DNA of 62,716 nucleotides, the filler included, from Stramenopiles sp. TOSAG23-6 (Eukaryota): the NCBI GenBank assembly GCA_900128565.1. It is 27 parts of 27 records of this genome, joined end to end, with 100 filler letters (N's around TTAATTAATTAA, not from the genome) between each part and the next. Parts side by side here need not be neighbours in the genome. Positions count along the whole stretch, not along the records: positions 23,369 to 25,599 come from LT638196.1; 26 more parts are not named here. The stretch is one strand, 5' to 3'. Within the stretch, counting starts at the first letter, position 1, and the number at the start of each line of letters is the position of its first letter. Below are positions 2,581 through 39,753 of the stretch, piece by piece. A program made the translations under genes and the position numbers. The notes under the pieces were generated by a model. The model ran no database searches. It saw nothing but the letters and a program-made list of their open reading frames with translations, and was not told where the DNA came from.

Positions 2581-4480
2581 ATCAATGATTTCAAGAGATT
2601 TCTGATCAATTTTATCAAATATATCATCATCCAATATATTATCACCATCATCATCATCAATCATACTACTAACAGCTCTTTCACTTGAGATTGTTTCAGG
2701 CTCAGATATAATAGATTCTTTTTCAATTTCATTAATGATCATCGTAGATTTCGTGTCGAGACTAAAACGAACGCCTTCTTTTCCTGTAGATGTAGTATTG
2801 ATATCGTTACATAAATTGATTGTATTCACTTCAATATTTGAAATAATATTATTTTGTGACTCTGCAGAATCCGAATTATGTTTCTGTTGTTTTGATACAA
2901 TCGAATTTGAAATAGCATTATTTTGTGACTCTGTAGAATCCGAATTATGTTTCTGTTGTTTTGATACAATCGAATTTGGTGTTTCAGGTGTCTTCATTAA
3001 TACACATTCTGATAACCATCCATGTATTTTGGAAAAAGTATTTCAAAAAAAAAAACTTAAATTTGTTAGGTACAAAATTTTTATAAAAAAATAGATTCGA
3101 TTTTTTTGTTAAAAAAATAAATAAAACATACATTGCATTGAGATGCTGCATTTAATACATGACGCCAAGGTTTACTTTTCCCTAATAAACTCTTATTTCC
3201 AACTATAATTAGGTGTCGTTTGGCCCTGGTAATTGCAACATTCATACGAGATGGCGAATCAATAAACCCAATGGAAGAGGATCGTACATGTAATTTGAAA
3301 AAATATTTCAAAAAAAAATTTTGAAAATTTGTTAGGTACAAAATTTTTATAAAAAAAAATTTAAATTTTTTTGTAAAAAAAAAAAAACACATACAGTACT
3401 AACTATAATTACTTCTTTTTCAGCTCCTTGAAATGTATTTTGGAAAAATATTTCAAAATTTTTTTTACCAAAAAAAAAAAATTTGTTAGGTACAAAATTT
3501 CGTATAAAAAAAATAAATTCGATTTTTTTTTTACCGGAAAAAAAAAAAAATAAAACATACATGCATCTACAGTTGACACATCGACATCAATCGCTTCACT
3601 ATTAGAAATATATGATAACAGAGTAGAAACAAGGCAAACTTGAGCTTTATATAAACAAATTACACCAATATTTTTTGCATGAACTCCAGAGGATAAAATC
3701 CAAGTGACCATTCGTTTCACTGTCTTAGCTTCAGCTCTATTACTAATACTATGATAGTTATCATATTGTTCACTAGCATCAAGTATTTTGGAAAAATATT
3801 TCAAAATTTACCAAAAAAAAAAAATTCGTTAGGTACAAAATTTTTATAAAAAAAAAATTCGATTTTTTTGTAAAAAAAAAAAAAATAAAAAAACATACAA
3901 CATGAAAGAAAGAAATAGGTGGCCAAGGAAGGACATGATGTCTATCTTGCAGTGTTATACCATCTTTTAATGTTCCATTGTAAAAAAGTTTATTTGAGAT
4001 AGCCGATATTTTGGGATGGCAACGATATTGGATATTTAATACTATAGGTTTAAATCCAGTGATTGCAAGACGTTCAAACATAGTTCGCTCAAGTAATTTA
4101 TTATTGCCACTTGGTACATTCGAAATTGAATTACTTTTTTTTGTACCAAATTTCGTACCTAAAGAATTTTGAATGGGTAGAGCGTCACCTTTTTTATTAT
4201 TTGGACGTTGAGCAAGTACTGGGGGAAGTTGTTTAGGGTCTCCGACAGCAACTAAACATTTGGCATATTTTGTGAATCATATTTTTTTGTTTTTTTTTTC
4301 ATTGAGAAAAAACATCGTTACGTACAAAATTTCGTACCAAAAAAAAAAAAAAAATGAACTTTATGATGAAAACGTACATGAAAACGAGAAATTGGAAGTA
4401 AAGCACATGGTTCTATCATTTGGGAGCACTCGTCTAATAAAATAATATCAAATGTTTGATTCTCGAGACATTGATGTTCG
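2345..4480 (-). CDS. ZGRF1: UPF1-like SF1 helicase, ZGRF1-like (partial, multi-exon)
   Basis: Spliced motifs VGDPKQLPP, LERTMFERL, QYRCHPKISAISNKLFYNG, IGVICLYKAQ, VSTVDAFQGAEKE, GFIDSPSRMNVAITRAKRHLIIVG. Confidence 0.8.
3288..3394 (-). other. GT-AT intron (VST|VRS)
   Basis: ACT|GTATGT...AATTACAT|GTA CGA restores IIVSTVRSSSIGF. Confidence 0.85.
3433..3560 (-). other. GT-AT intron splitting the helicase motif VDA-F-QG
   Basis: GCA T|GTATGT...AAAATACAT|TT CAA GGA; using the next AG deletes FQ and creates TGA. Confidence 0.9.
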
Positions 4481-9262: not shown

Positions 9263-9438
9263 NNNNNNNNNNNNNNNNNNNNNNNNNNNNNNNNNNNNNN
9301 NNNNNNTTAATTAATTAANNNNNNNNNNNNNNNNNNNNNNNNNNNNNNNNNNNNNNNNNNNNTTGTTAGGTACGGAATTTTTTTACGAAAAAAAAACAAA
9401 CAAAAAAAAATTAAATTAGACATTCATATACAACGTAC

Positions 9439-10443
9439 ATTTCCTCCCATGGAATGGCCAATAAAATGAAGTGGTTTTGTTTCACACCATCCCGGATAAT
9501 CACCGACTTCAATAGAACCAAATCGACTATGTTTGCATCGTTTGGATTTCTCCTCTCCATAATCTACTTGACCTCCTTTGAGTTGATAAAAAAGTTCACA
9601 CGCTCGATCATGATCAGATGACAACGGACCCAAACGTGATACAAAAACTCGCCGATCTAATAATTCTGCACCTGCCCAATAACTCGGCATCCATTGAGAA
9701 TGTCCACGACCCCAACCACAAATACCATGAACAAGAACAAAGGGACAATTATTTTCATTGGCCACGAAATCCGCGACATTTGCAAGACGTTCTTGGGAAA
9801 ATGAACTTTGCATGGTTTGTATTCGAATATTTGGATCTATTGCTGGCGTTGTCACAGCAGGACTAGAATGTACATTACTCGGTGGAGTATTCTGGGCATT
9901 CAATACCTGACCTGCAGCAACATCCCCTTGTAGAGTTGTGCCAGACGTTGCTAGGCTATGAACATTTCGTATACCTGATATTGTTGCTGCAATGGTAGCC
10001 TGTGTTGCAGTGGCAGCGACAGTAAATGGTACAAAAATATCGGTAGGCTGAGGACGGCGAAGTTTTAGAAAGGCCTTTTCTGTTAGGACAATGAGCCAAA
10101 TTGAAAGAGTTCTTAAAGACATCCAGCAAAAAGTAAAATGAAAAGCGATGCTTTCATGCAACAGAGGCCAAACAATATTTCGAAAAGGCCATAACCAGAT
10201 ACGAAAGCACAAAAAGTCGATACAAAACAGTATCTGTCGAGTAAAGAACCAAATGATGCGAAGCAAAATCCTCAAACTTGTTCCCTGTGTCAGCTCCCAT
10301 AATTCGCCATAAGGGTCGAGATTTAGTTTAGGGAAACGTTCACCACTCCTACTACTGCATTCATCTTGCTCTGGTTGTGAGTTTTTATCAAAAGATACAC
10401 GTCTCCTTCTCTTGACATCGTGCGCTGCATTTTTTNAANACAT
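9439..10443 (-). CDS. Triacylglycerol lipase (alpha/beta hydrolase), first exon
   Basis: FVLVHGICGWG, GPLSSDHDRACELFYQLKGGQVDYG, LHFIGHSMGG; ends at a GTACGT family donor. Confidence 0.88.
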
Positions 10444-10744
10444 CTCAAANAANTTNATCAAATTTTGGGTATGGTCTATACTGGCAAAGATAACGCAGAA
10501 TCTATGGTTGTTATCCAATTCCAATGATCTCTCTCAAGTCTTGTTGCCAAGGTTATAGAACCTTGTTGTTGCCTTCCAAAGGACCATTTGCGGTTTTTTT
10601 GACCAGTCAAAAAACACGAAATACGTACTTATATAATTGTGATCGTTGTTTTTTCTTCGTTTGACTTGACACATGCACAGTGGAGAGACGAATTCGGAAT
10701 TCCTCCTCCTGTGTAGATCCGAGAGTAAGGTAGTACGTAACAAC

Positions 10745-11597
10745 ATGACTGAGAATGATTCAGCAACTGTGCTTCCCAAATTGAGTGTTACACTCATTAC
10801 AGGATTTCTGGGATCTGGAAAGACCACGCTTCTTAATCGTATTCTTTCGGAAAATCATGGTAAAAAGTTTGCTGTGGTTGAAAACGAATTTGGCGAAGTT
10901 GGTATTGATGATGTTCTCGTAAAGCAAAAAATTCAACTTGAAGGGACTGATGAAAACAACATTTGTATGGAAATGAATAATGGCTGTATATGCTGTACAG
11001 TACGTGCGGATATGGCAAAGACATTAAATTCTTTGCTTGACCTGCATCGAAGTGGAAAAACATTGGACGGAATCATCATCGAGACAACAGGTATGGCTGA
11101 CCCTGGTCCAGTTGTCCAAACGCTTTTTGTCGATGAAGGTATCAGTGATGGAATATACTTAGATGGTGTATTAACTGTAGTCGATGTCAAACATATAAAA
11201 AAACATCTTGATGAAAAGACTGGTGGTGAGGCAGTGAACCAGGTGGCATATGCTGATCGACTTCTATTGAACAAAATCGACCTTGTGACAAAAGAAGAAG
11301 CCGATAGCGTCGAGGACCGAATCACCAAAATTAATGGTACAGCTCGTGTCATTCGTTGTACGCATGCGAAGGTAGATATGGATGTGTTGTTGGGAATTCG
11401 AGCTTTTGAATTAAATCGTATCACCTCGATGGACCCAGCCTTCTTAAATGTCGATGATCACGATGAAACTTGCACTGAGGAAGACTGTGACCATGATCAC
11501 CATGACCATAATCATACACACGGTCATAAGCATGATCATAAGCATGAAAAAGATGGTCACGATCATAAACATGAAAAAGATGGTCACGATCATAAAC
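10745..11597 (+). CDS. COG0523/CobW (ZNG1-like) zinc-chaperone GTPase with His-rich region, partial
   Basis: ITGFLGSGKTT, VVENEFGEVGID, GCICCTVR, IETTGMADP, LLNKIDL, His-rich tract. Confidence 0.95.
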
Positions 11598-11773
11598 NNN
11601 NNNNNNNNNNNNNNNNNNNNNNNNNNNNNNNNNNNNNNNNNTTAATTAATTAANNNNNNNNNNNNNNNNNNNNNNNNNNNNNNNNNNNNNNNNNNNNTTG
11701 TTAGGTACGGAATTTTTTTACGAAAAAAAAACAAACAAAAAAAAATTAAATTAGACATTCATATACAACGTAC

Positions 11774-12778
11774 ATTTCCTCCCATGGAATGGCCAATAAA
11801 ATGAAGTGGTTTTGTTTCACACCATCCCGGATAATCACCGACTTCAATAGAACCAAATCGACTATGTTTGCATCGTTTGGATTTCTCCTCTCCATAATCT
11901 ACTTGACCTCCTTTGAGTTGATAAAAAAGTTCACACGCTCGATCATGATCAGATGACAACGGACCCAAACGTGATACAAAAACTCGCCGATCTAATAATT
12001 CTGCACCTGCCCAATAACTCGGCATCCATTGAGAATGTCCACGACCCCAACCACAAATACCATGAACAAGAACAAAGGGACAATTATTTTCATTGGCCAC
12101 GAAATCCGCGACATTTGCAAGACGTTCTTGGGAAAATGAACTTTGCATGGTTTGTATTCGAATATTTGGATCTATTGCTGGCGTTGTCACAGCAGGACTA
12201 GAATGTACATTACTCGGTGGAGTATTCTGGGCATTCAATACCTGACCTGCAGCAACATCCCCTTGTAGAGTTGTGCCAGACGTTGCTAGGCTATGAACAT
12301 TTCGTATACCTGATATTGTTGCTGCAATGGTAGCCTGTGTTGCAGTGGCAGCGACAGTAAATGGTACAAAAATATCGGTAGGCTGAGGACGGCGAAGTTT
12401 TAGAAAGGCCTTTTCTGTTAGGACAATGAGCCAAATTGAAAGAGTTCTTAAAGACATCCAGCAAAAAGTAAAATGAAAAGCGATGCTTTCATGCAACAGA
12501 GGCCAAACAATATTTCGAAAAGGCCATAACCAGATACGAAAGCACAAAAAGTCGATACAAAACAGTATCTGTCGAGTAAAGAACCAAATGATGCGAAGCA
12601 AAATCCTCAAACTTGTTCCCTGTGTCAGCTCCCATAATTCGCCATAAGGGTCGAGATTTAGTTTAGGGAAACGTTCACCACTCCTACTACTGCATTCATC
12701 TTGCTCTGGTTGTGAGTTTTTATCAAAAGATACACGTCTCCTTCTCTTGACATCGTGCGCTGCATTTTTTNAANACAT
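11774..12778 (-). CDS. Lipase, redundant copy 2
   Basis: Identical to 9439-10443. Confidence 0.85.
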
Positions 12779-13079
12779 CTCAAANAANTTNATCAAATTT
12801 TGGGTATGGTCTATACTGGCAAAGATAACGCAGAATCTATGGTTGTTATCCAATTCCAATGATCTCTCTCAAGTCTTGTTGCCAAGGTTATAGAACCTTG
12901 TTGTTGCCTTCCAAAGGACCATTTGCGGTTTTTTTGACCAGTCAAAAAACACGAAATACGTACTTATATAATTGTGATCGTTGTTTTTTCTTCGTTTGAC
13001 TTGACACATGCACAGTGGAGAGACGAATTCGGAATTCCTCCTCCTGTGTAGATCCGAGAGTAAGGTAGTACGTAACAAC

Positions 13080-13932
13080 ATGACTGAGAATGATTCAGCA
13101 ACTGTGCTTCCCAAATTGAGTGTTACACTCATTACAGGATTTCTGGGATCTGGAAAGACCACGCTTCTTAATCGTATTCTTTCGGAAAATCATGGTAAAA
13201 AGTTTGCTGTGGTTGAAAACGAATTTGGCGAAGTTGGTATTGATGATGTTCTCGTAAAGCAAAAAATTCAACTTGAAGGGACTGATGAAAACAACATTTG
13301 TATGGAAATGAATAATGGCTGTATATGCTGTACAGTACGTGCGGATATGGCAAAGACATTAAATTCTTTGCTTGACCTGCATCGAAGTGGAAAAACATTG
13401 GACGGAATCATCATCGAGACAACAGGTATGGCTGACCCTGGTCCAGTTGTCCAAACGCTTTTTGTCGATGAAGGTATCAGTGATGGAATATACTTAGATG
13501 GTGTATTAACTGTAGTCGATGTCAAACATATAAAAAAACATCTTGATGAAAAGACTGGTGGTGAGGCAGTGAACCAGGTGGCATATGCTGATCGACTTCT
13601 ATTGAACAAAATCGACCTTGTGACAAAAGAAGAAGCCGATAGCGTCGAGGACCGAATCACCAAAATTAATGGTACAGCTCGTGTCATTCGTTGTACGCAT
13701 GCGAAGGTAGATATGGATGTGTTGTTGGGAATTCGAGCTTTTGAATTAAATCGTATCACCTCGATGGACCCAGCCTTCTTAAATGTCGATGATCACGATG
13801 AAACTTGCACTGAGGAAGACTGTGACCATGATCACCATGACCATAATCATACACACGGTCATAAGCATGATCATAAGCATGAAAAAGATGGTCACGATCA
13901 TAAACATGAAAAAGATGGTCACGATCATAAAC
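13080..13932 (+). CDS. CobW/COG0523 GTPase, redundant copy 2
   Basis: Identical to 10745-11597. Confidence 0.9.
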
Positions 13933-14108
13933 NNNNNNNNNNNNNNNNNNNNNNNNNNNNNNNNNNNNNNNNNNNNTTAATTAATTAANNNNNNNNNNNN
14001 NNNNNNNNNNNNNNNNNNNNNNNNNNNNNNNNTTGTTAGGTACGGAATTTTTTTACGAAAAAAAAACAAACAAAAAAAAATTAAATTAGACATTCATATA
14101 CAACGTAC

Positions 14109-15113
14109 ATTTCCTCCCATGGAATGGCCAATAAAATGAAGTGGTTTTGTTTCACACCATCCCGGATAATCACCGACTTCAATAGAACCAAATCGACTAT
14201 GTTTGCATCGTTTGGATTTCTCCTCTCCATAATCTACTTGACCTCCTTTGAGTTGATAAAAAAGTTCACACGCTCGATCATGATCAGATGACAACGGACC
14301 CAAACGTGATACAAAAACTCGCCGATCTAATAATTCTGCACCTGCCCAATAACTCGGCATCCATTGAGAATGTCCACGACCCCAACCACAAATACCATGA
14401 ACAAGAACAAAGGGACAATTATTTTCATTGGCCACGAAATCCGCGACATTTGCAAGACGTTCTTGGGAAAATGAACTTTGCATGGTTTGTATTCGAATAT
14501 TTGGATCTATTGCTGGCGTTGTCACAGCAGGACTAGAATGTACATTACTCGGTGGAGTATTCTGGGCATTCAATACCTGACCTGCAGCAACATCCCCTTG
14601 TAGAGTTGTGCCAGACGTTGCTAGGCTATGAACATTTCGTATACCTGATATTGTTGCTGCAATGGTAGCCTGTGTTGCAGTGGCAGCGACAGTAAATGGT
14701 ACAAAAATATCGGTAGGCTGAGGACGGCGAAGTTTTAGAAAGGCCTTTTCTGTTAGGACAATGAGCCAAATTGAAAGAGTTCTTAAAGACATCCAGCAAA
14801 AAGTAAAATGAAAAGCGATGCTTTCATGCAACAGAGGCCAAACAATATTTCGAAAAGGCCATAACCAGATACGAAAGCACAAAAAGTCGATACAAAACAG
14901 TATCTGTCGAGTAAAGAACCAAATGATGCGAAGCAAAATCCTCAAACTTGTTCCCTGTGTCAGCTCCCATAATTCGCCATAAGGGTCGAGATTTAGTTTA
15001 GGGAAACGTTCACCACTCCTACTACTGCATTCATCTTGCTCTGGTTGTGAGTTTTTATCAAAAGATACACGTCTCCTTCTCTTGACATCGTGCGCTGCAT
15101 TTTTTNAANACAT
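14109..15113 (-). CDS. Lipase, redundant copy 3
   Basis: Identical to 9439-10443. Confidence 0.85.
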
Positions 15114-15414
15114 CTCAAANAANTTAATCAAATTTTGGGTATGGTCTATACTGGCAAAGATAACGCAGAATCTATGGTTGTTATCCAATTCCAATGATCT
15201 CTCTCAAGTCTTGTTGCCAAGGTTATAGAACCTTGTTGTTGCCTTCCAAAGGACCATTTGCGGTTTTTTTGACCAGTCAAAAAACACGAAATACGTACTT
15301 ATATAATTGTGATCGTTGTTTTTTCTTCGTTTGACTTGACACATGCACAGTGGAGAGACGAATTCGGAATTCCTCCTCCTGTGTAGATCCGAGAGTAAGG
15401 TAGTACGTAACAAC

Positions 15415-16267
15415 ATGACTGAGAATGATTCAGCAACTGTGCTTCCCAAATTGAGTGTTACACTCATTACAGGATTTCTGGGATCTGGAAAGACCACGCT
15501 TCTTAATCGTATTCTTTCGGAAAATCATGGTAAAAAGTTTGCTGTGGTTGAAAACGAATTTGGCGAAGTTGGTATTGATGATGTTCTCGTAAAGCAAAAA
15601 ATTCAACTTGAAGGGACTGATGAAAACAACATTTGTATGGAAATGAATAATGGCTGTATATGCTGTACAGTACGTGCGGATATGGCAAAGACATTAAATT
15701 CTTTGCTTGACCTGCATCGAAGTGGAAAAACATTGGACGGAATCATCATCGAGACAACAGGTATGGCTGACCCTGGTCCAGTTGTCCAAACGCTTTTTGT
15801 CGATGAAGGTATCAGTGATGGAATATACTTAGATGGTGTATTAACTGTAGTCGATGTCAAACATATAAAAAAACATCTTGATGAAAAGACTGGTGGTGAG
15901 GCAGTGAACCAGGTGGCATATGCTGATCGACTTCTATTGAACAAAATCGACCTTGTGACAAAAGAAGAAGCCGATAGCGTCGAGGACCGAATCACCAAAA
16001 TTAATGGTACAGCTCGTGTCATTCGTTGTACGCATGCGAAGGTAGATATGGATGTGTTGTTGGGAATTCGAGCTTTTGAATTAAATCGTATCACCTCGAT
16101 GGACCCAGCCTTCTTAAATGTCGATGATCACGATGAAACTTGCACTGAGGAAGACTGTGACCATGATCACCATGACCATAATCATACACACGGTCATAAG
16201 CATGATCATAAGCATGAAAAAGATGGTCACGATCATAAACATGAAAAAGATGGTCACGATCATAAAC
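15415..16267 (+). CDS. CobW/COG0523 GTPase, redundant copy 3
   Basis: Identical to 10745-11597. Confidence 0.9.
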
Positions 16268-16443
16268 NNNNNNNNNNNNNNNNNNNNNNNNNNNNNNNNN
16301 NNNNNNNNNNNTTAATTAATTAANNNNNNNNNNNNNNNNNNNNNNNNNNNNNNNNNNNNNNNNNNNNTTGTTAGGTACGGAATTTTTTTACGAAAAAAAA
16401 ACAAACAAAAAAAAATTAAATTAGACATTCATATACAACGTAC

Positions 16444-17448
16444 ATTTCCTCCCATGGAATGGCCAATAAAATGAAGTGGTTTTGTTTCACACCATCCCGG
16501 ATAATCACCGACTTCAATAGAACCAAATCGACTATGTTTGCATCGTTTGGATTTCTCCTCTCCATAATCTACTTGACCTCCTTTGAGTTGATAAAAAAGT
16601 TCACACGCTCGATCATGATCAGATGACAACGGACCCAAACGTGATACAAAAACTCGCCGATCTAATAATTCTGCACCTGCCCAATAACTCGGCATCCATT
16701 GAGAATGTCCACGACCCCAACCACAAATACCATGAACAAGAACAAAGGGACAATTATTTTCATTGGCCACGAAATCCGCGACATTTGCAAGACGTTCTTG
16801 GGAAAATGAACTTTGCATGGTTTGTATTCGAATATTTGGATCTATTGCTGGCGTTGTCACAGCAGGACTAGAATGTACATTACTCGGTGGAGTATTCTGG
16901 GCATTCAATACCTGACCTGCAGCAACATCCCCTTGTAGAGTTGTGCCAGACGTTGCTAGGCTATGAACATTTCGTATACCTGATATTGTTGCTGCAATGG
17001 TAGCCTGTGTTGCAGTGGCAGCGACAGTAAATGGTACAAAAATATCGGTAGGCTGAGGACGGCGAAGTTTTAGAAAGGCCTTTTCTGTTAGGACAATGAG
17101 CCAAATTGAAAGAGTTCTTAAAGACATCCAGCAAAAAGTAAAATGAAAAGCGATGCTTTCATGCAACAGAGGCCAAACAATATTTCGAAAAGGCCATAAC
17201 CAGATACGAAAGCACAAAAAGTCGATACAAAACAGTATCTGTCGAGTAAAGAACCAAATGATGCGAAGCAAAATCCTCAAACTTGTTCCCTGTGTCAGCT
17301 CCCATAATTCGCCATAAGGGTCGAGATTTAGTTTAGGGAAACGTTCACCACTCCTACTACTGCATTCATCTTGCTCTGGTTGTGAGTTTTTATCAAAAGA
17401 TACACGTCTCCTTCTCTTGACATCGTGCGCTGCATTTTTTNAANACAT
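16444..17448 (-). CDS. Lipase, redundant copy 4
   Basis: Identical to 9439-10443. Confidence 0.85.
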
Positions 17449-17749
17449 CTCAAANAANTTAATCAAATTTTGGGTATGGTCTATACTGGCAAAGATAACG
17501 CAGAATCTATGGTTGTTATCCAATTCCAATGATCTCTCTCAAGTCTTGTTGCCAAGGTTATAGAACCTTGTTGTTGCCTTCCAAAGGACCATTTGCGGTT
17601 TTTTTGACCAGTCAAAAAACACGAAATACGTACTTATATAATTGTGATCGTTGTTTTTTCTTCGTTTGACTTGACACATGCACAGTGGAGAGACGAATTC
17701 GGAATTCCTCCTCCTGTGTAGATCCGAGAGTAAGGTAGTACGTAACAAC

Positions 17750-18602
17750 ATGACTGAGAATGATTCAGCAACTGTGCTTCCCAAATTGAGTGTTACACTC
17801 ATTACAGGATTTCTGGGATCTGGAAAGACCACGCTTCTTAATCGTATTCTTTCGGAAAATCATGGTAAAAAGTTTGCTGTGGTTGAAAACGAATTTGGCG
17901 AAGTTGGTATTGATGATGTTCTCGTAAAGCAAAAAATTCAACTTGAAGGGACTGATGAAAACAACATTTGTATGGAAATGAATAATGGCTGTATATGCTG
18001 TACAGTACGTGCGGATATGGCAAAGACATTAAATTCTTTGCTTGACCTGCATCGAAGTGGAAAAACATTGGACGGAATCATCATCGAGACAACAGGTATG
18101 GCTGACCCTGGTCCAGTTGTCCAAACGCTTTTTGTCGATGAAGGTATCAGTGATGGAATATACTTAGATGGTGTATTAACTGTAGTCGATGTCAAACATA
18201 TAAAAAAACATCTTGATGAAAAGACTGGTGGTGAGGCAGTGAACCAGGTGGCATATGCTGATCGACTTCTATTGAACAAAATCGACCTTGTGACAAAAGA
18301 AGAAGCCGATAGCGTCGAGGACCGAATCACCAAAATTAATGGTACAGCTCGTGTCATTCGTTGTACGCATGCGAAGGTAGATATGGATGTGTTGTTGGGA
18401 ATTCGAGCTTTTGAATTAAATCGTATCACCTCGATGGACCCAGCCTTCTTAAATGTCGATGATCACGATGAAACTTGCACTGAGGAAGACTGTGACCATG
18501 ATCACCATGACCATAATCATACACACGGTCATAAGCATGATCATAAGCATGAAAAAGATGGTCACGATCATAAACATGAAAAAGATGGTCACGATCATAA
18601 AC
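17750..18602 (+). CDS. CobW/COG0523 GTPase, redundant copy 4
   Basis: Identical to 10745-11597. Confidence 0.9.
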
Positions 18603-18702: not shown

Positions 18703-19673
18703 GAAGGTCCAGTTGAGGGGTGTATTGGTTTTCATTGCGATGGTGGGCATGTAGGTTTTTTTTTTTTTTTTTCATAGAAAATTTTGTGCCTACACAAAAA
18801 ATATTTTTTTTTTTTCATAGAAAATTTTGTAACTACCAATTTTTTTGACTATTAATTTTTCCAAATTTCATATATTTTTTCAAAATACATGCTACCCAGA
18901 CTGTTCAAATATGTTTAAATGATGAATCTGAATATGTTGGAGGTAGGTTAGTGTTTTACACTAAAGGTAAGTTACCTCTATATATTATGAATTTTAATTT
19001 TTTGTAAAAAAAAAAAAATTTATAACCCTAACCCTAACAAAAAAAATAAATTAATTTTCGAAATATTTTTGACACGAAATGAAAGTTAAATATACCAAGA
19101 CGTCCAGAAGGAACACTTACTAGACACGACAAAGATATTCTTCATGCAGTGACTAGACTCTACAAAGGTGTGCGTTACAGTCTTTTTGTTGTGGATTTTG
19201 ATAATGGATTGGGTGAGAAAGGTGTATGTATTATTTTTTTTTCAATTTTTTTTTTCGTACGAAATTTCGTACCTAACAAATTTTACGAAAAAAAAAAAAA
19301 AAGTTAACAACACATGTGCTTTCATTGTCTGATTTAGAATTTAGTCGAATTTTGAAAACTATTGATGTAGGGTTAGGGTTAGGGTTAGGTCAAAGTAATA
19401 GTCGTACAACTACTGATGAGATAACCATTATTCAAATGTTAGATAAAATAAGAAAAGAATTTGGAATTGATTTAGATGTTGGTTTTACTTTTTTTTAAAT
19501 TCGAATTTTTTTTTCATACGAAATTTTGTACCTAACAATTTTTTTTTTTTTTTTTGAAATATTTTCTAAAAATACATTTAGCTGCAGCAGGGAAAATGCG
19601 ATGGGAAGAAAGTCATCCAAGGATATTTGAAGGATGTATAAAACCAACTCAGCCTCCACGATGGGATTTTTAA
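18703..19673 (+). CDS. 2OG-Fe(II) oxygenase (prolyl-hydroxylase-like), multi-exon, partial
   Basis: IGFHCD, LNDESEYVGGRLVF, ILHAVTRLYKGVRYSL; joined by GT-AT introns including 18967-19080; 3' end approximate. Confidence 0.8.
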
Positions 19674-21229: not shown

Positions 21230-21435
21230 TTTCTCATTAGGGTTAGGGTTAGGGTTATTTTGACTTTTTTTATTTTCTTTCCAATACGAAATACAAATAT
21301 TCATCATTGTATATGATGGAAAAAAAACTAACATCCCATCAGGTACTATTCTTGAAAAATTTACAATAGTATTTCCCAATTCATTGAGATATTTTGGATC
21401 TTTTCTATGTTTATAATCACATTTTAATTGATTAT
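21230..21435 (-). CDS. RTEL1/XPD-family helicase exon
   Basis: YLNELGNTIVNFSRIVPDGMLVFFPSYTMM. Confidence 0.8.
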
Positions 21436-22054: not shown

Positions 22055-23147
22055 ATTTTCATCATTTGCCATTGAAAGAGCCCTTTGGAAGCAACCTAAT
22101 GACATATCATATTGAGCTGCATAAAAACAACATAGACCTAAATTATTCCAAATTTCTGCGTTATTTCTGTATTGTGAAGATATAAATTTAAAAAAAAAAA
22201 AAAAATCATTAGGAATAAATTTTCGTACCAAAAAAAAAAAAAAAAAAAAAAAAAAATTAGGTATAAAAAAAATGTACACATTCATTTGTACCAAACGTCT
22301 ATAGTAAAAAAGTGCAACTTCAGGTTGATCTGAATAAAAATGATTGGTTGCAAGACATGAAATAGATTCAATACATGCAGCATAAATTGTGAAAAAATAT
22401 TGGAGAAAAAGTCTAAAAAAAATTGTTAGGTACAGAATTTCGTACGAAATTGTTTTTTTTTGAAATGTATCATGGAAACAAACATCAACGCGTAGAATTT
22501 GTTTGTATAAAATTGTTGATTGTTCAGTATTTTGCAACATATCTAAAATTCGAGCTTTTGCACGCAGAATTGAAACATTTCCTGGATATTTGTTTAAATA
22601 GTCGGTATATATTTTTAATGCAGAATTTGGTTGGTCCATTTTCAGAAATATATTTTTGGAAAATATTTCAAAATTTTTTTTAAAAAAAATGTTAGGTACA
22701 AAATTTCGTACAAAAAAAAAATTTCAAAAATTTCAAAATTTTTTTTTAAATTGTTAGGTACAACATTTCGTACGAAACCAAAAAAAAAATTATGAATGAC
22801 AAACACATACAAACTTTGGCCAAATCTAATATAATTATTGTCATATTTTGTTGTTTTTGTGCGCTCATAAATTGTTTCTCGGCATCTCTGTACAAACCTA
22901 ATCTATAATAACATTTTCCTAGTCGGTGTTTCCAAAACCAATCTGTTTACTTTGAAAAAATATTTCAAAAAAAATTTTCCGTAAAAAAAAAAATTGTTAG
23001 GTACAAAATTTCGTATGAAAAAAAAAAAGTCGATTTTTTTTTTTCGGTTAAAAAAAAAATAAATAAAACATACGCATATTTATTGACTTCAGTTGCAGCA
23101 GCAGCGAGTTCAAGTGCTTTTTTAGGATTATTATCATGGTAGAGTAA
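22055..23147 (-). CDS. TTC8: BBSome subunit BBS8/TTC8 (TPR), internal exons
   Basis: DWFWKHRLGKCYYRLGL, LAKVFLKMDQP, NHFYSDQPEVALFYYRRLVQM, NNLGLCCFYAAQYDMSL; introns 22945-23073, 22648-22810, 22382-22483, 22167-22277. Confidence 0.93.
22945..23073 (-). other. GT-AC intron
   Basis: TAT GC|GTATGT...AAAGTAAAC|A GAT TGG gives Y-A-D-W; the AG two nt further on is out of frame. Confidence 0.75.
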
Positions 23148-23983: not shown

Positions 23984-25518
23984 ATGCCAAAGAGAAAACA
24001 CCCTTCTAATGAAAAAGACACAGAAACAAAAACACCGGCAGAGTTTTTTGCCGAGAATCAGCAAATTGCTGGATTTGACAATGATGGAAAAAGTATGTAT
24101 ACGACACTTCGAGAGCTTATTGAAAATGCACTCGACGCGAGTGAATCCATTTCTCAGTTACCACAGATACAAATTTCAATTCAAGAAATTGAAGCGAGTA
24201 GTCTTAGTCTACTTCATGGTTTAGAGCCTCATCTTCGTGGTGATAAAACGTTGTATGAAGATACAAGAAAAAATCAAAAGAAAAAAAGAAAGAAAAATAT
24301 CGTGTCAAGTAGTAAGTCTTCACAGAAATTGGGACAACAACAACAACAACAAGGAAAAGTTAAAACGCTGGGCGCAAATTTATACAAGATTACAGTGTGT
24401 GATAATGGATGCGGCATGCAACACGAAAAAATACCAAATTTACTTGGGCGTGTGTTGAGTGGTTCAAAATATGGTGTACGACAAACACGTGGTAAATTTG
24501 GTTTAGGTGCAAAAATGGCACTAATTTGGAGCATGAAGAGTACAGGCTTACCTATCACTGTATTTTCTGCTCAATGTAAAGGTGAAAAAAACAATACGCC
24601 TGATTTTGTATCATTTGTAAAATTAGAAATTGATTTACAGAAAAATTGTCCAATTATTCATAATCATGATAAGTTGTCATTTCCATTGCCTTCCAATATT
24701 TGTGTTGGTAGCAATAATGTACCTTCAAAGCCGATATTTTTAAACGGTAGAGGAACAGAAATTACTATGATTATTCGAGGAAATTGGCGAACGTATCAAG
24801 GACGTATTAAATCGTACTTGCAACAATTGGCAGTGATTACACCTTATGCTGATATTAGTTTACGATATATTTCAAATAAAAAATCTTCTGGAGGTATAAA
24901 AAATCTAGTCATGGGTAAAGGAATTACTACTATAGTAAATACTACTAAACACACGAATGTAAAAGGTGAAGTTCCTAATACAGAAAACACTGCAGCTAAA
25001 CCGAATCTAGCTGTAAAAAGTAAAGTACATAGTGATGTAAATAGTAAAGTAAGCAACCTCCCTACAATTCCTTTACAGTTAACATTCAAACGTATGTTTT
25101 ATTTTTTTTAATTTTGATTTTTTTTTCGTACGAAATTTTGTACCTAACGAATTTTTTTTGAAATATTTTTCCAAAATACATGACGGTCTAAAAGAATGCC
25201 TTTACCACCAAGAGATTCATTACCCCATCCTTCTGCAATTGACAATATTTCTCTCAAACATTTATTGAGGGAATGTTCTTCGTCAATGACATTAGAAACA
25301 ATATTTTCTACAAAGCTTTGTTGTATATCAAAACAATTAGCAAATCGAATCACTAATGAATTAGGAGAGAGATTTATAAATATGAAAAAATGTAATGAAA
25401 TGTCATCTGCAGATATTCAATATATTGTTCAACTACTTCACGCCGCAAGGTCAATTCCACAACCAAATCCAGATTGTCTCTCTCCAGCAAATGCATACAA
25501 TTTGAGACTGGGAATCAT
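23984..25518 (+). CDS. TOP6B: DNA topoisomerase VI subunit B (exons 23984-25091, 25182-25518; partial)
   Basis: PAEFFAENQQIAGFDN, RELIENALDA, DNGCGM, GSKYGVRQTRGKFGLGAKMAL, QLAVITPYA, LSPANAYNLRLGI. Confidence 0.95.
25092..25181 (+). other. GT-AT intron (90 nt)
   Basis: TTC AAA C|GTATGT...CCAAAATACAT|GA CGG TCT gives FKRRSKRMP; the AT-AC shift gives TGA and the next AG is out of frame. Confidence 0.9.
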
Positions 25519-25699
25519 GTACGTTTTATTTTTTTTTTAATTTTGAATTTATTTTTTTATAAAAATTTTGTACCTAACGATTTTTTTTTAAATATTTTTN
25601 NNNNNNNNNNNNNNNNNNNNNNNNNNNNNNNNNNNNNNNNNNNTTAATTAATTAANNNNNNNNNNNNNNNNNNNNNNNNNNNNNNNNNNNNNNNNNNNN

Positions 25700-27929
25700 T
25701 TTTTTTTTTTTTTTTGAAACTAAAAAAAAAAATTTTGAAATATTTTTCCAAAATACATACGTCGTGTTGAAGACTGGATATGAATCGACGTTGGAGATTG
25801 TTAAATGTCCTCTCGATGGAACATGCCTTGGTGGTGGAAAAAATAATACATCTTGGAATAATTGTGCTACTGGACGGAAAGGCATTTTGTGTGTATTGTG
25901 TGATGATACAAAAGGATATTATGTATGTTTTATTTTTTTTTTTTTTCTTTACCAAAAAAAAAAAAAATCGAATTTTTTTTTTTTATAAAAATTTTGTACC
26001 TAACAAATTTTTTAGAATTTTTTTTTGAAATATTTTCCAAAATACATAAATCTGGTATGAAATGTGAACAGAGAGATTGTGCGGAAACTTCTCCTGCTGC
26101 TGGTATTTTATTAATATTATTTTTGTTATTATTGTGGTGTATGTTATCGTGCTATTGTATGTCAAAACCAGCTCCACAATGGACAGATGCGGATGATCTT
26201 GCTGCAATGGAAGATGATGAAAAAAGTAGATCTTTGGGATATCTGGAACATGCAGGAGGAGCCTTAATGGAACAATCTGCATATGCTGAGTCTACACTTC
26301 AAAGCGATGGAAATAGTGCAGCAGTTGTGCGTAAAGCTACACTTGATGCCGTATCATCTGTGAAGAGCACGGCAAAGAGTGCAGCTGCACAAGCCAAAGA
26401 GTCCAAAGACGCTTTAAAGAAGTTATTATCAAATCAATGGCTTATTGCCTTGACGGATATCCGTAGTATATTGAAGCTTTTAGTATCTTATTTTCAAATT
26501 CTAACTCAACTTGATGTCACAGTAAATGCGCCATTTCCGTTGAAATTTAAAAACTTTTATCGCGGATTTAGTGCAATTAATATCGATTTGACGGGTATTA
26601 TTGGACCAGTTGATTTGTGTAATTTAAGTACAAGTTTTTCGAATGGTTTTTATATTCATCTTTGTATTTTGCCAATACTATCGATTCTTGTGTTTATCAT
26701 CTGGCTGTTATTAGGGTATACATGTATGTTTTTTTTTTTTNTCACCAAAATTTTTTTTTTTTTTTTATTTCAAATTTTTTTAAAATTTTAAAAAAATTTT
26801 TTTTTTTTTAAAAATTTTTAAAAAAAAAAAAATTTTTTTAAAATTTTAAAAAAATTTGAAATAAAAAAAAAAAAAAAATTTTGGTGAAAAAAAAAAAAAA
26901 CATACATGTATACCCTAATAACAGCCAGATGATAAACACAAGAATCGATAGTATTGGCAAAATACAAAGATGAATATAAAAACCATTCGAAAAACTTGTA
27001 CTTAAATTACACAAATCAACTGGTCCAATAATACCCGTCAAATCGATATTAATTGCACTAAATCCGCGATAAAAGTTTTTAAATTTCAACGGAAATGGCG
27101 CATTTACTGTGACATCAAGTTGAGTTAGAATTTGAAAATAAGATACTAAAAGCTTCAATATACTACGGATATCCGTCAAGGCAATAAGCCATTGATTTGA
27201 TAATAACTTCTTTAAAGCGTCTTTGGACTCTTTGGCTTGTGCAGCTGCACTCTTTGCCGTGCTCTTCACAGATGATACGGCATCAAGTGTAGCTTTACGC
27301 ACAACTGCTGCACTATTTCCATCGCTTTGAAGTGTAGACTCAGCATATGCAGATTGTTCCATTAAGGCTCCTCCTGCATGTTCCAGATATCCCAAAGATC
27401 TACTTTTTTCATCATCTTCCATTGCAGCAAGATCATCCGCATCTGTCCATTGTGGAGCTGGTTTTGACATACAATAGCACGATAACATACACCACAATAA
27501 TAACAAAAATAATATTAATAAAATACCAGCAGCAGGAGAAGTTTCCGCACAATCTCTCTGTTCACATTTCATACCAGATTTATGTATTTTGGAAAATATT
27601 TCAAAAAAAAATTCTAAAAAATTTGTTAGGTACAAAATTTTTATAAAAAAAAAAAATTCGATTTTTTTTTTTTTTGGTAAAGAAAAAAAAAAAAAATAAA
27701 ACATACATAATATCCTTTTGTATCATCACACAATACACACAAAATGCCTTTCCGTCCAGTAGCACAATTATTCCAAGATGTATTATTTTTTCCACCACCA
27801 AGGCATGTTCCATCGAGAGGACATTTAACAATCTCCAACGTCGATTCATATCCAGTCTTCAACACGACGTATGTATTTTGGAAAAATATTTCAAAATTTT
27901 TTTTTTTAGTTTCAAAAAAAAAAAAAAAA
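25700..27929. repeat. Whole-contig inverted duplication (palindrome centred near 26815), likely amplification/assembly chimera
   Basis: The right half is the reverse complement of the left half, with mirrored ORFs. Confidence 0.9.
25759..26723 (+). CDS. Cys-rich multi-pass membrane protein fragment
   Basis: CATGRKGILCVLC, hydrophobic segments, LKLLVSYFQI; family intron near 25923-26047. Confidence 0.65.
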
Positions 27930-28029: not shown

Positions 28030-28222
28030 GATGAAGCTCGAGAATTTGAGAATAATCTGAGCCCAAAATCGTGTATGCTGTATTGTTCGTTACCGGTGCA
28101 GCATAAGGAATAAAACCTTTCATTTCCATACCATTCGACTTGCCCTCATCACGAGACATTGCTACCGCGACTGAGCCGCCAGGGCCCTGACTCATGTCAG
28201 GTTCAACCTTGGCTGTATTCAT
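28030..28222 (-). CDS. N-terminus of a protein, possibly AIM24-like
   Basis: ATG-initiated frame running off the contig, YTILGSDYSQILELH; family call is weak. Confidence 0.4.
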
Positions 28223-28560
28223 TGAGTACGCTTCTGAGGTTTATTGAAAAAAGAATTGTCGAAATACCAAATGAGATGAGTGGTTAAAATTCGAAAAGTC
28301 AACACAAATATCATAAATGACAGTAAGTCAAGGCAAGCAAGTGACACGAAATCCGTAAATTTCATGCCCGGAGAAATTGGGGATATTACACCGTGGACCG
28401 TTACGAAAAAAAGAGGAAAAAAAAGGAATCATAGAATAAAAACTGATCAGTACCTGCCCCAAGGTTATCAGTTGGCTTTTCTGCATATAAAGGACACCAC
28501 GGAATCTTTTTACACATAATCACGGTGTACTGGAAAACTGGAAAGAATAATTATTATATA

Positions 28561-30259
28561 ATGAGTTGTTGTATTGACCTCTGTTTCGGTTGTACTTGTG
28601 AAGGTTTAGCTTGTTGTGGTGCAGTATGCTGTACCTGTTTGTCATCAAGAAAGCAACACCGACGAGATGATGAAGCGCATACATTCTGTTCGCGATTCTG
28701 TATCTGGTGTCAGTTTGCCTTTTATTGCATCATGGCTGGTGTAACAATGGTTTTAATCTTTATTATTGGAATGGCGCCGGAGTCCCTCGGTTTAGGTACG
28801 GCAAAGACAGGTGAAAATAATTGTATCCAACAGCCGGGATGTGACGTCATAGTTCTTTCTATGTGTAATCCAAATATCTATAATTGTCCTGTAGACGATG
28901 ATGATAATCCAGACACAGAAAAACCATTCAATCCGTTTTTTGAAAAATCACTTTCAATACAAGGAGATGTAGTAAAAACTTGTCGAATATTTGAAAGATG
29001 TATGTTTTATTTTTTTTTTTAACAAAAAAATCGATTTTTTTTTCGTACGCAATTTTGTACCTAACGAATTTTAAGTTTTTTTTTTTGAAATATTTTTCAA
29101 AAATACATACGGTTCACATTGGACAATTCCTGCTTCCTCAGATACATCAATGGAATCTACATTACGAAAAACAAAACCAGAGTTATTTCGAGATCGCACT
29201 TGCTCAGATGCATCTTCAGAAGCAGATTGTGATATTCTTATTGGATGTAATTGTACGTTTTATGATGATTTTTTTTTACCAATTTTTTTTTCATACGAAA
29301 TTTTGTACCTAACAAAACATTTTTACAAAAAAAAATATTTTTTCAAAATACATGGAGTGGTTCCTGTGGGGGGATGATAACAAAATGTAATGATATCACA
29401 GATACAGGAAGCAATGCTGGAGTGACTGCGCTTATTGTTATATTACTTATAGTTTTCATCGTATTTGTAGGGGTTGCTTTTATGCGTCATCGTGTAATTT
29501 TTCAAAATTGATTTTTTTTTTACCAATTTCAAATTCATTTTTTTTCCTTATCAATTCTGTAACTAACAAATTTCGAATGTAAAATATTTTCTTCAATCCA
29601 TACACTTTATCTATATGATGAAAAGATGAAAAAACTTGCGGATGAGAAGAAGGACCATAATAAAGAAAAAGAAGAAGAAGAAGAAGAAGAGGAACCAAAT
29701 TATTGCTTGGAATGTCCACCATTATGGTGTGTAAGATGCATGCCTACTAAAGTACGTAGCTCTTGTTGTGATGGTTGTTGTGATTGTGATGATGAAGAAG
29801 ATGGAAACGTTAAAGCGACTGCCAAAGTTAGCCCCTTATCGCCAGAGGAAACAAAAGGTCCGCCTGAAAGAGGTGCCCAAATGTCAGACCCAAGAATGGG
29901 TGAAGTTGGTACAAATAAAATAAATCGACCTAATTTACAAATTTCTCCTGATTCTGGTCGTGGTGGTCTTGATGGACTAGGTGATGTTGGATTGATGCAA
30001 TTATCGGGTGCAGTGCCTAGTTTTGCTACTAATGATATCAATCGTTCAAGTAGCATGGCAGATTTTCGACAAAAACAAATTGAACAAGAACAAAAAAATC
30101 AACTCTTACAAATGGAAATAACTCAACTTCGAATGGAGCAATCTCTAAATAATAATGCAAATATTCAGAAATCAGCGAGTATGAACAATATAAATCAAAT
30201 GGGTAGTCAAATGGGTATTCAGAGATCAGCAAGTTTGAATCCAAATATGAATTCAGGAA
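28561..30259 (+). CDS. Cys-rich membrane protein, multi-exon, partial
   Basis: Frame is continuous across GT-AT introns (ER-Y-GS, CN-W-SG); hydrophobic segments. Confidence 0.7.
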
Positions 30260-30424: not shown

Positions 30425-32492
30425 TCAACCTGCAAGACCTCCCAGGAGACCTACTACACCAGAGCCGATAGATCCTCCAACAGAGAAGATACCTTCAAAG
30501 AGACCGAATACACCAGAGCCCATACTTTGCAGGACAGATGCTATATCAGAGCTCACAGAAGATAATCCTGAAACACCCCCCGAAAGTTCATTCCAGAAGT
30601 CACCAATGCCAGTGCCATCAATATCCAAACCCTTAATACCCTCAAAGTTAGTCAATTCTGCATCTTGAGTTCCATAAGTGACAGAAGTGACAGTTTTCAG
30701 AAGATCTTGATCAGAACCAGCGTCACTTGAAATTGGTATACCTAGCAAAACTCCACCATCGGTAGGAGTATCTGCTGCATATGTGTCTCCAACATCAGAA
30801 GCAGAAATTCCTGCAGGTGTGTTATTACCATAGCCATACCCATACCAAGGGCCATAACCATATCCATAACCATAACCATAGTAACCATAACACCAGTTTA
30901 GAATAAAACAACTTCCAAAGTCATCCCAATACACTCCGTCGTTTTGATTGAAATGTACTCCACAATTGATAATTTTTTTCTGTTCTTCTTCATTTGGTTC
31001 TTCCTTTTTCAACTCTGTATAACGTTCTTCACCGAGTTCTTTGAATAAACATTTTTTTATTTCTTCTTTTGTTTCTGGGATTTTTTTATCTGTTTCATCT
31101 TGTGTTGATTGTTTTTGTAGTTTTTGTAATTGTACTCTTTTGAATCTAATGTTTTCTTTTTCATGTTTTTGTGCTTCATTTTTTTTCTTACGTACATTTA
31201 AATGGTATTTAACAAATTCTCTTTGCCGTTTATGTACATCTTCCAAATATTTTACTTTGGTTTTGATTAATTTCGTGAGAGCTTCTTCTTGCTGTTGATG
31301 GAAATCATTGAGACTCTTTTTTGCTTCTTGTTGCTCCTTTCGGAGATTTTGGAGATCCTCTCGTTTACCAATACCAATTCCTCTATGATTTTGAGTATTT
31401 TGAGTACTTTTTGTTTTATGATTTGCTATCTGTTCATCATGGCGATCTTTTTGCTTTTGTTTTTCTTCTTCATGCTCTTGTTTTTGTTTTTCTTTTATCT
31501 TTTTTAAAAACGTATTGTACATTTGAACTTCAATGACCTGCTTCCGTTTTTGTAAAAGAAGTACAAATGTTTGAAATGTACTTTCACCCATATGGAGTAA
31601 CTTCTCTGTAATTTTTTTTAGCATTTCTTGTGTCTGTTGCTTTGACATATTTTTGTCATGTGATGGAAATATTGGTTCATGAAATCTCATCAGCCAATCA
31701 GGAATTGTATTACCATCTGCATCATATAACTTTGTGTCTTGATGTTGATGTATTTTAGAAAAATATTTAAAAAAAAAAAAAAAATTGTTAGGTACAACAT
31801 TTCGTATGAAAAAAATATTTAAAAAAAAAAAAAATTGTTAGGTACAAAATTTCGTATGAAAAAAATATTTAAAAAAAAAATCGATGAAAATAATATACAT
31901 TTGCTCCTTCGCCCATAAAAACACTTTCTCTTTCTTTTGCGACAATTTCTTCTTCACCACCATTAGTATAACGATTTATTTTCTTTTCAAGACGATTATT
32001 CCAGTCATATTGACTCTCTGTTATATATTGACTTATCATTTCATTTAGTTCATATTGTTTCGCATTTGTACCAGATAATTCCTTAAAGTACTCTTGTGAA
32101 ATTAGTACTTTGAACCTGTGCTCCGATTGAGCTAAATATAATTCATTTTCAGATAAGGTGCTACCCGGTTCACTAAGAACACACACTTTAAATTGTTTGA
32201 ATCGTAACAATTTGCATCGCCCTGTACAGATTTTGTCGGGTGAATCGTCGCTTTTCCACCACTCTTGCAAATAGCAATCATTAATAATTGGTTCTGGGTC
32301 AAAATTTATTAAATCATCTGAAAATAACCATGGTTTTTCAGATTCTAAATTTGAAGCTGGATCATTTGAATCTCCAAAAAGCGCACTTACTTGTTGAACA
32401 CAAAAGCTTTCATGAATAACTCGACATAAATCTTCACACCAAGTCTGGGGACAGAAAAAGTCTTTATCCTTTGGATCACAAGTGATGGCTCC
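30425..32492 (-). CDS. Hypothetical protein with coiled-coil, YG-rich and Gly/Ser-rich C-terminus (two exons, partial)
   Basis: Long open frames flanked by family introns. Confidence 0.6.
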
Positions 32493-37344: not shown

Positions 37345-37401
37345 TCTTTCAAGCTTCTTTCAAGCTTCTTTCAAGCTTCTTTCAAGCTTCTTTCAAGCTT
37401 C
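37345..37401 (+). repeat. 11-bp tandem repeat (TTCAAGCTTCT)n
   Basis: About five direct copies. Confidence 0.9.
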
Positions 37402-37733
37402 GTATACTTTTTGGTCAAAAAATTTTAAGTTTTTAGGTATGAAATTTCGTATACTTTTTGATAAGTAAGAAAATTCGTATACTTTTTGTTAGGTATAAAA
37501 TTTCGTATACAATTGTTCAAGGAACAAACCTGCTCAAATTTATCAGAGGCTTCGCGGTTGCCGGTCCAATTTTTACCGGTCCATCGCCATCAGAATTTAA
37601 TGCGCTGATGTACTTGTAGAACTTGCACTGTACTGTAGAACTTTTGCAATCACAAAGCATATTCATAATTGACAAATACTATCCCATTATACGTTCAGAT
37701 TCATAGTGTATTGTTGAACCTGTCATTGAGGAC

Positions 37734-39204: not shown

Positions 39205-39753
39205 GTATGTTTTATTTTTTTTTCAATTTTTTGTCTAAATTTTTTTTTCAATTTCGAATTTATTTTTTTTTCAATTTTTTGTCTAAATTTTTTTTTTCAT
39301 ACGAAATTTTGTACCTAACAAATTTTTTAGATTTTTTTTTTTAAATAATTTTTTTTCATACGAAATTTTGTACCTAACAAATTTTTCAAAATTTTTTTTG
39401 AAATATTTTTCCAAAATACATTCAAAATGAACAATGAATCAGCAAAAGTTGCTTTATATCACTCATATAATGCAAAATTAGCATCTGAGAAAGCAAATCG
39501 TTGTGTACAATTAGCATTATCATCTGTCGTCCAAGCCATTGAATATACAACAGTAAACCCTAACCCTAACNNNNNNNNNNNNNNNNNNNNNNNNNNNNNN
39601 NNNNNNNNNNNNNNTTAATTAATTAANNNNNNNNNNNNNNNNNNNNNNNNNNNNNNNNNNNNNNNNNNNNTGGAAAAATATTTGAAAAAAAANTCGTTAG
39701 GTACGAAATTTCGTACGAAAAAAAATTCGAATTTGAAAAAAAATAAAACATAC

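What the first reader, a model, noticed from the sequence alone, without database searches (positions are those of the whole stretch)
25120..25181. Extended conserved branch module: palindrome TTTCGTACGAAA + TTTTG + TACCTAAC, then a 3' hairpin
Seen: the ~25-nt core stays nearly invariant while the poly-T spacers vary. TACCTAAC has one more C than the U2 branch consensus TACTAAC and differs from U12 TCCTTAAC. Downstream, TTTTGAAATATTTTTCCAAAA is a quasi-palindrome ending just before TACAT. Inference: strong branch definition plus structure could replace AG recognition. This predicts a U2 snRNA variant with GUAGGUA or a dedicated binding protein.
Basis: inference. Interest (0 to 1): 0.72.

Follow-up and report, generated by a model that had tools for sequence, protein, structure and literature searches.

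The report
Transposon-derived branch box in AT-ending introns
The motif is the inner core of a mobile ~100-base intron family in a marine protist: only its last nine bases are held constant and appear to serve as an ordinary branch site, the same motif sits at both ends of a small DNA transposon, and the organism also cuts out an intron that lacks both the motif and the usual AG end.

Summary
The module is real: 78 exact TACCTAAC against about 1 expected. It lies in a 90-nt GT..AT intron of a TOP6B gene (25092-25181), one of a genome-wide ~100-nt family that this scan has already reported many times on other DNA of this genome. Only GTACCTAAC is near-invariant (95-99% per base in 176 of 188 introns); the palindrome is exact in 55 of 176. 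Neither hairpin has convincing support. The genome's U2 is canonical, no GUAGGUA variant was found, and the extra C weakens U2 pairing. The module is not needed for AG-less splicing: one RNA contig joins a Rab7 intron that ends in AT and has no module. Two results I did not find in the earlier notes: the U1 5' end differs at three positions, each matching the family donor; and a 448-bp element with a TA target duplication carries the module inverted at both ends. Best reading: a DNA-transposon motif whose CTAAC was co-opted as a branch point, in a host whose major spliceosome has relaxed the AG check. No lariat and no family-intron splice was seen in RNA here.

The parts
23984..25091 (+). TOP6B (topoisomerase VI subunit B) exon upstream of the intron
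   Evidence: 41-48% identity to eukaryotic TOP6B proteins; HATPase_c domain
25092..25181 (+). 90-nt family intron, GT...AT
   Evidence: Best of 795 open-frame cut pairs against 96 TOP6B segments, score 76.2, tied with three slid registers that give the same protein; only this one starts with GT; five in-frame GT-AG alternatives score 53.5-63.2. No RNA cover tested here.
25092..25100 (+). Donor box GTATGTTTT, complementary to this genome's altered U1 5' end
25124..25135 (+). 12-nt palindrome: variable part of the element body, first half of a GTAC-N8-GTAC dyad
   Evidence: exact in 55 of 176 copies; dyad spacing 8 enriched
25140..25148 (+). Near-invariant 9-mer GTACCTAAC; its CTAAC is the inferred branch core, predicted branch A at 25147, 34 nt from the 3' end
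   Evidence: 95-99% per position; branch A inferred from motif, not mapped
25156..25176 (+).
   Evidence: -1.6 kcal/mol, z = -0.53; no excess pairing at 7 of 8 pairs
25160..25181 (+). Fixed-length 22-nt 3' box ending in CAT; last two bases look like a 2-bp target-site duplication across the family
   Evidence: acceptor profile; exon-end/intron-end match test
25182..25518 (+). TOP6B next exon
   Evidence: reading frame and homology
25519..25599 (+). Next family intron, cut by the contig end; carries a variant without the CGTACG palindrome but with exact GTACCTAAC
37400..37510 (-). Tandem module-like copies with no donor or 3' box, upstream of a gene on the other strand

Best explanation
The module is the inherited core of a ~100-nt introner family and comes from a DNA-transposon motif (GTAC-N8-GTACCTAA). 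The element inserts with a 2-bp duplication, mostly at AT; it brings a GT donor, and the duplicated two bases become the intron's last two. In the transcript an unchanged U2 pairs with the CTAAC end of the motif as with any branch site (inferred). The palindrome and T runs upstream drift, and no hairpin is needed. The lack of AG is a property of the host's major spliceosome, not of the module: the 3' cut is most likely set by distance from the branch (33 nt or more) plus a fixed-length 3' box (inferred). The snRNA that differs is U1, whose 5' end fits the family donor including the duplicated AT. Shown: conservation profile, canonical U2, altered U1 gene, 2-bp match, shared motif in a TA-flanked element, one module-less GT..AT splice in RNA. 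Inferred: branch A position, U1 function, transposase binding, direction of descent.
For: Conservation split between 9-mer and palindrome, also among 33 copies with identical donor and 3' box: palindrome centre intact in 14, TGTACCTAAC in 30. U2 canonical. Last two exon bases equal last two intron bases in 18 of 59 non-AT cases vs 2.1 expected, at positions -1 and -2 only. A 448-bp non-coding element (L148:1126-1573) has terminal inverted repeats, TA on both sides against an empty copy of the site nearby, and the module inverted near both ends plus a third half-site; a second copy at L142 is 79% alike over 474 nt. RNA contig of run X3 joins L124:6291 to 6456 with no mismatch and no slide, removing a 164-nt GT..AT Rab7 intron without the module. 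Five module-less introns have ordinary CTNAY sites 33-36 nt from the end; two end in CAT, three in AG (four placed by reading frame only). U1 gene differs from the Rfam consensus at nt 2, 5 and 9; family donors carry the matching bases in 181, 179 and 164 of 188 and pair better with it in 179 of 188. Removal at the predicted ends opens a frame in 149 of 176 vs 35-40 when shifted by 1 or 2 nt.
Against: GTAC is as conserved as CTAAC even in drifted copies, which transposition alone does not explain, and U2 pairing does not either (-2.8 kcal/mol with the extra C vs -5.0 without). The TA-flanked element has other termini (GG..CC, TA) than the introns (GT..AC, mostly AT), only two copies were seen, its downstream flank is not like the introns', and no transposase was identified. 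41 of 59 non-AT exon ends do not match the intron end, and 29 of them end in AT, so AT is favoured beyond duplication. Two palindrome pairs exceed independence (127 vs 110; 112 vs 80) and 47 of 176 modules fold at z below -2. The RNA join rests on one contig of depth 5 in one of four runs; the module-bearing introns of that stretch had no exon cover. The U1 scores below Rfam's cut-off (54.1 vs 69.5 bits), its expression is not shown, and 4 of 5 module-less donors pair better with consensus U1.
Confidence: 0.58

Rival explanations
1. Extended branch recognition by a protein: a divergent SF1/BBP-type or other RNA-binding factor reads the whole 9-mer GUACCUAAC in the pre-mRNA, which is why GTAC is kept copy by copy. 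This can be true together with a transposon origin.
For: GTAC kept in 688 of 704 cells and at 96-100% in drifted copies. U2 gains nothing from it (two-bulge helix -0.2 vs core only -0.5 kcal/mol). No SF1 helix-hairpin domain was found; an SF1-like KH domain sits in an unusual four-KH protein (L138).
Against: Module-less introns use ordinary branch motifs, one of them spliced at AT. Family copies with one C or other variants exist among the 14 with two or more mismatches. GTACCTAA is also kept in non-intron DNA in both orientations. The KH alignment stops before the QUA2 region. The SF1 search had no positive control.
Confidence: 0.25
2. The motif is a host DNA-binding site (promoter, chromatin or telomere-related factor) that both the introns and the 448-bp element carry along.
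For: GTAC-N8-GTAC occurs 25 times outside intron-like context vs 2-12 for other spacings; 12 of 21 inspected variant copies lack donor and 3' box; several lie 40-250 bp from a start codon, and two symmetrical copies lie between divergent genes at L166.
Against: Some 'outside' copies are diverged introns or coding chance; intergenic DNA is short, so nearness to a start is weak; only 3 fully symmetrical sites exist genome-wide, two of them fold-back artefacts at contig ends; five one-mismatch sites read were intronic.
Confidence: 0.1
3. One reading: a U2 variant with GUAGGUA plus two hairpins define the branch so strongly that AG recognition is replaced.
For: 9-mer invariance; some folding signal (47 of 176 at z below -2); the assembly is incomplete, so a second U2 could be missing.
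Against: Canonical U2 only; hairpins weak and without covariation; 72 of 176 3' ends have no predicted structure; module-less AT intron spliced; AG-ending copies keep the module equally.
Confidence: 0.04

Closest known systems
Introners of the Chrysochromulina type (PMC9860276, passages seen by term search; one supplement term search, family tables not read)
   Same: Repeated intron family that carries its 5' splice site and takes its 3' splice site from a target-site duplication; locus-specific end match by the paper's own criterion.
   Different: Duplication is 2 bp, not 4; the recruited end is mostly AT, not AG; an internal motif is shared with a TA-flanked element; the host U1 differs.
Non-canonical U2-type introns of Fritillaria borealis (PMC13326754: abstract, section 4, first part of section 26; review PMC11282704 passages)
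   Same: Most introns escape GT-AG; AT is a common 3' end; U2 branch-pairing region, U6 ACAGAGA box and U5 loop 1 unchanged.
   Different: There the donors are non-GT and the U1 5' end is strictly preserved, with divergent U2AF paralogues; here donors are GT, U1 differs at three positions, and module-less introns at old positions also end in CAT.
Entamoeba and Mastigamoeba U1 matched to atypical donors (10.1101/2022.06.08.495308: abstract and section 12)
   Same: U1 5' end changed to full complementarity with the dominant donor; constrained branch-to-end distance.
   Different: Those branches lie about 8 nt from the 3' site; here 33-48 nt, ends are mostly AT, and the matched donor belongs to a mobile family and includes its insertion-site bases.
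MITEs with TA target duplication (Tc1/mariner-like; superfamily assignment recalled, not tested)
   Same: The 448-bp element has terminal inverted repeats, TA duplication, no coding frame and repeated subterminal motifs.
   Different: Only two copies seen; no autonomous partner found; the introns have other termini.

Membership tests
U2-type spliceosomal intron | GT donor complementary to U1 | tested here: met
   GT in 179 of 188; pairs the genome's own U1
U2-type spliceosomal intron | Branch core able to pair canonical U2 | tested here: met
   CTAAC in 861 of 880 cells; U2 canonical; pairing is weak, -2.8 kcal/mol
U2-type spliceosomal intron | AG acceptor | tested here: not met
   AG in 12 of 188, AT in 147; this intron ends in AT
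U2-type spliceosomal intron | Removed from RNA through a lariat at the branch A | tested here: inconclusive
   No family intron covered in four RNA runs; a module-less GT..AT intron was joined; lariats not testable on contigs
Introner | Many similar introns at unrelated loci | tested here: met
   188 in 695 kb, control 0-1
Introner | Locus-specific target-site duplication | tested here: met
   18 of 59 vs 2.1 expected, 2 bp
Introner | Terminal inverted repeats of 6 nt or more | tested here: inconclusive
   Only about 4 nt of end symmetry in the profiles
Introner | Presence/absence between strains, or a mobilising transposase | not tested
   No relative genome held; no transposase search was run
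U12-type intron | U12 branch and donor consensus | tested here: not met
U12-type intron | U12 snRNA in the genome | tested here: inconclusive
   No match, but no positive control rang
MITE (448-bp element at L148) | Terminal inverted repeats, target duplication, no coding frame | tested here: met
   TA on both sides against an empty site; longest open frame 55 aa
MITE (448-bp element at L148) | High copy number | tested here: inconclusive
   Two copies in the DNA held; none in metagenome contigs
Fritillaria-type non-canonical splicing | Unchanged U1 5' end | tested here: not met
   Three changes in the only U1 found
Fritillaria-type non-canonical splicing | Duplicated divergent U2AF subunits | tested here: inconclusive
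   One U2AF65-like gene; no U2AF35 seen among 15 CCCH hits, 7 of 14 loci read

The most novel reading that the evidence does not exclude
A DNA-transposon binding motif was exapted as a branch site, the resulting introner filled the genome, and the host's major spliceosome was then rebuilt around it: U1 was recoded at three positions to fit the element's donor and its AT insertion site (or a second, introner-dedicated U1 arose beside a canonical one that the assembly lacks), and the AG check was dropped so far that old, module-less introns switched to CAT.
Probability: 0.3. Interest if true: 0.87.

Novelty: new variant of a known kind. Interest (0 to 1): 0.6.

Why it matters
It separates what the mobile element supplies (donor, branch core, duplicated end) from what the host changed (U1, acceptor rule). 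If it holds, it gives a natural case in which the spliceosome adapted to a transposon family, with testable pairs: U1 nt 2, 5, 9 against donor +7, +4, -1, and an old intron that splices at AT with no special module. It also means AG-based gene prediction fails in this lineage for family and non-family introns alike.

Tried and rejected
U2 variant: not found. U12: no match, uninformative. No Rfam family in the window. Hairpin from the palindrome, hairpin from GTACGA/TTGTAC and 3' hairpin: weak, no convincing covariation. Fixed ruler from branch to end: distances 33-48 nt with peaks at 35 and 44, so a minimum and not a fixed length. First boundary test was confounded by an organism-specific insert upstream and favoured longer deletions; it was redone on the local motif. 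First seed set was too small through a pattern error and was redone. Inverted pair on C129 is a fold-back, not a transposon; the stretch fetched was not analysed further. Symmetrical sites on C627 and C1135 are fold-backs. A consensus U1 5' end at L113 lies in coding sequence. No near-identical spliced proteins in the protein collection for TOP6B or the sulfhydrylase exon (best 48% and 88%). Module pattern absent from viral contigs; two metagenome contigs hold it, both intron-like. Paper searches listed no description of this family, its U1 or its module; the library lacks most subscription journals, and the introner family tables in the supplement of PMC9860276 were not read and may bear on novelty.

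Full report
Setting. The window is a string of about 2.2-kb contigs joined by N spacers, with duplicates. The genome G000 has 21 Mb in 6236 contigs. Its EF2 is closest, among named records, to a gene model labelled MAST (81%); other named stramenopile proteins follow at 59-66%. Earlier notes of this scan already describe the AT-ending intron family and doubt the hairpin; I tested those points again.

Observation. The motifs are at the stated places and far above chance. They lie in a 90-nt intron of a TOP6B gene. Of 795 cut pairs that leave an open frame, the best score against 96 homologue segments (96 of 120 had the segment) is shared by four slid registers that give one protein; only 25092-25181 starts with GT, and it ends in AT. 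Five in-frame GT-AG alternatives exist and score lower (53.5-63.2 vs 76.2).

What is conserved. To avoid circularity I found introns from donor and 3' end only: 188 in 695 kb, against 1, 0 and 0 in shuffles. 143 have exact GTACCTAAC, 31 one mismatch, 2 two; 12 were dropped before position counts. In 176 copies each base of the 9-mer is kept at 95-99%, the palindrome's C and G at 54-71%. The exact 25-mer occurs in 36 and the exact palindrome in 55. In the 65 copies whose ends are 84% identical to consensus the 9-mer stays at 92-100% and the palindrome centre is at 64%. Among 33 copies with the same donor and 3' box, the palindrome centre is intact in 14 and TGTACCTAAC in 30. So the constrained unit is 9 nt, not 25.

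Structure. The predicted stem in 25120-25181 pairs GTACGA with TTGTAC and is no better than shuffles (z = -0.99); the 3' stem is -1.6 kcal/mol. Pairing in that stem equals independence at all 7 pairs, and in the 3' stem at 7 of 8. Against this reading: two pairs inside the palindrome exceed independence (127 vs 110, 112 vs 80), which I put down to intact copies and one A/T-only variant, and 47 of 176 modules fold at z below -2, median -1.2.

snRNAs. U5, U2, U1 and U4 lie head to tail on one contig, with an identical duplicate. U2 matches the Rfam consensus through its branch-pairing region; U6 ACAGAGA and U5 loop 1 are canonical. No GUAGGUA variant was found. The extra C weakens U2 pairing (-2.8 vs -5.0 kcal/mol), so U2 reads the CTAAC core and does not explain GTAC. 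U1 is the one that differs: nt 2, 5 and 9 depart from consensus, and family donors carry the matching bases at +7, +4 and -1 in 181, 179 and 164 of 188, the consensus-matching bases in 2, 4 and 8. Mean pairing is -9.6 kcal/mol with the genome's U1 and -2.7 with consensus. Four of five module-less donors pair better with consensus U1 and one equally, so either U1 was refitted to the family or a canonical U1 is missing from the assembly. The U1 scores under Rfam's cut-off and its expression is untested.

The module is not what replaces AG. Five introns without the module were read in EF2, RPS9 and three Rab genes. All have an ordinary CTNAY site 33-36 nt from the end (the RPS9 slice there is off by one, giving 35); three end in AG and two in CAT. 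For Rab7, one 159-nt contig of polyA run X3 joins L124:6291 to 6456 with 75 and 84 matching letters, no mismatch and no slide, removing a 164-nt GT..AT intron. The other three runs did not cover the joint, and the module-bearing introns of that stretch had no exon cover. That this Rab7 position is ancient is recalled, not tested. AG-ending family copies keep the 9-mer as often as the rest (9 of 12 vs 134 of 176), and 53 of 176 have an AG between branch and end that the predicted cut skips. The predicted ends open a frame in 149 of 176, shifted ends in 35-40.

Origin. The last two exon bases equal the last two intron bases in 18 of 59 non-AT cases, 2.1 expected, at exactly two positions: a 2-bp target duplication by the criterion in PMC9860276 (passages). 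The module also occurs outside introns. The clearest case is a 448-bp non-coding element at L148:1126-1573 with inverted ends, TA on both sides against an empty copy of the site, the module inverted near both ends and a third half-site inside; a second copy at L142 is 79% alike. Its first 43 nt resemble intron 5' parts more than 100 of 100 shuffles; its downstream flank does not. Its termini differ from the introns', so the motif is shared but a common transposase is not shown.

Mechanism, committed. Insertion with a 2-bp duplication at mostly AT sites (shown statistically); donor read by the variant U1 (inferred from complementarity); branch at CTAAC by canonical U2 (inferred); 3' cut set by a minimum distance and the fixed 22-nt box, with no AG check (inferred; AG-less cut shown once in RNA, in a module-less intron). 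GTAC constancy is the open point: DNA-level motif of the mobile element (favoured, 0.58 for the whole account) or a protein reading nine bases of RNA (0.25). One U2AF65-like gene was found; U2AF35 was not seen among 15 CCCH hits, 7 of 14 loci read; SF1-HH gave no hit; an SF1-like KH sits in a four-KH protein. In an incomplete assembly these absences are inconclusive.

Known systems. It works like a Chrysochromulina-type introner spliced by a U2 spliceosome with a relaxed acceptor, as in Fritillaria (PMC13326754: abstract, section 4, first part of section 26), but with a changed U1 as in Entamoeba (10.1101/2022.06.08.495308: abstract, section 12). PMC11282704 was seen in passages. Nine paper searches listed no account of this family; supplements were not read beyond one term search.

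Verdict. Observation partly confirmed; U2 variant and hairpins not supported; new variant of a known kind; interest 0.6.

Noticed in passing
L004:9-645 (G000:C1146), duplicate L002: U5, U2, U1 and U4 genes lie head to tail within 640 bp with gaps of 2, 23 and 5 bases; looks like one polycistronic snRNA unit.
   Followed up: partly
window 19022-19040, 19367-19389, 21240-21258, about 43985-44013: Telomere-like (CCCTAA)n or (TTAGGG)n tracts inside genes; in the intron near 19030 the tract supplies the only CCTAAC, in place of the module.
   Followed up: no
L115:5262-5287: A near-complete module just after the stop codon of RPS9, with no donor or 3' box.
   Followed up: partly
L166:1350-1420 (G000:C1219): Two symmetrical copies of the motif between divergent genes.
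   Followed up: partly
window 4110-4175 (+): A module-like stretch antisense inside the open frame of a helicase gene; may be an element kept as coding sequence.
   Followed up: no
L138:667-2484 (+): 605-aa protein with an SF1/BBP-like KH domain followed by three FUBP-like KH domains.
   Followed up: partly
L045:1108-3069 (-): U2AF65-like protein whose two RRMs both resemble RRM1.
   Followed up: partly
L124:3703-3790: Family intron sequence is deeply covered in three RNA runs (summed depth 400-800 vs about 5 on exons); this sums all copies and may be pre-mRNA or DNA, so it does not show a stable intron RNA.
   Followed up: no
L029, L115, L124 vs the 188-intron set: Genes with strong codon bias (EF2, RPS9, Rab7) had only module-less introns in the parts read; all family introns scored below zero on an EF2-based codon index.
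   Followed up: partly
window 9363-18602, 25700-27929, 28030-30259 vs 58204-60410: Four identical contigs, one fold-back contig and one duplicated contig; counts need de-duplication.
   Followed up: yes
window 22691-22777, 31787-31861, 39295-39378, 43378-43468: Introns with two modules in tandem.
   Followed up: no
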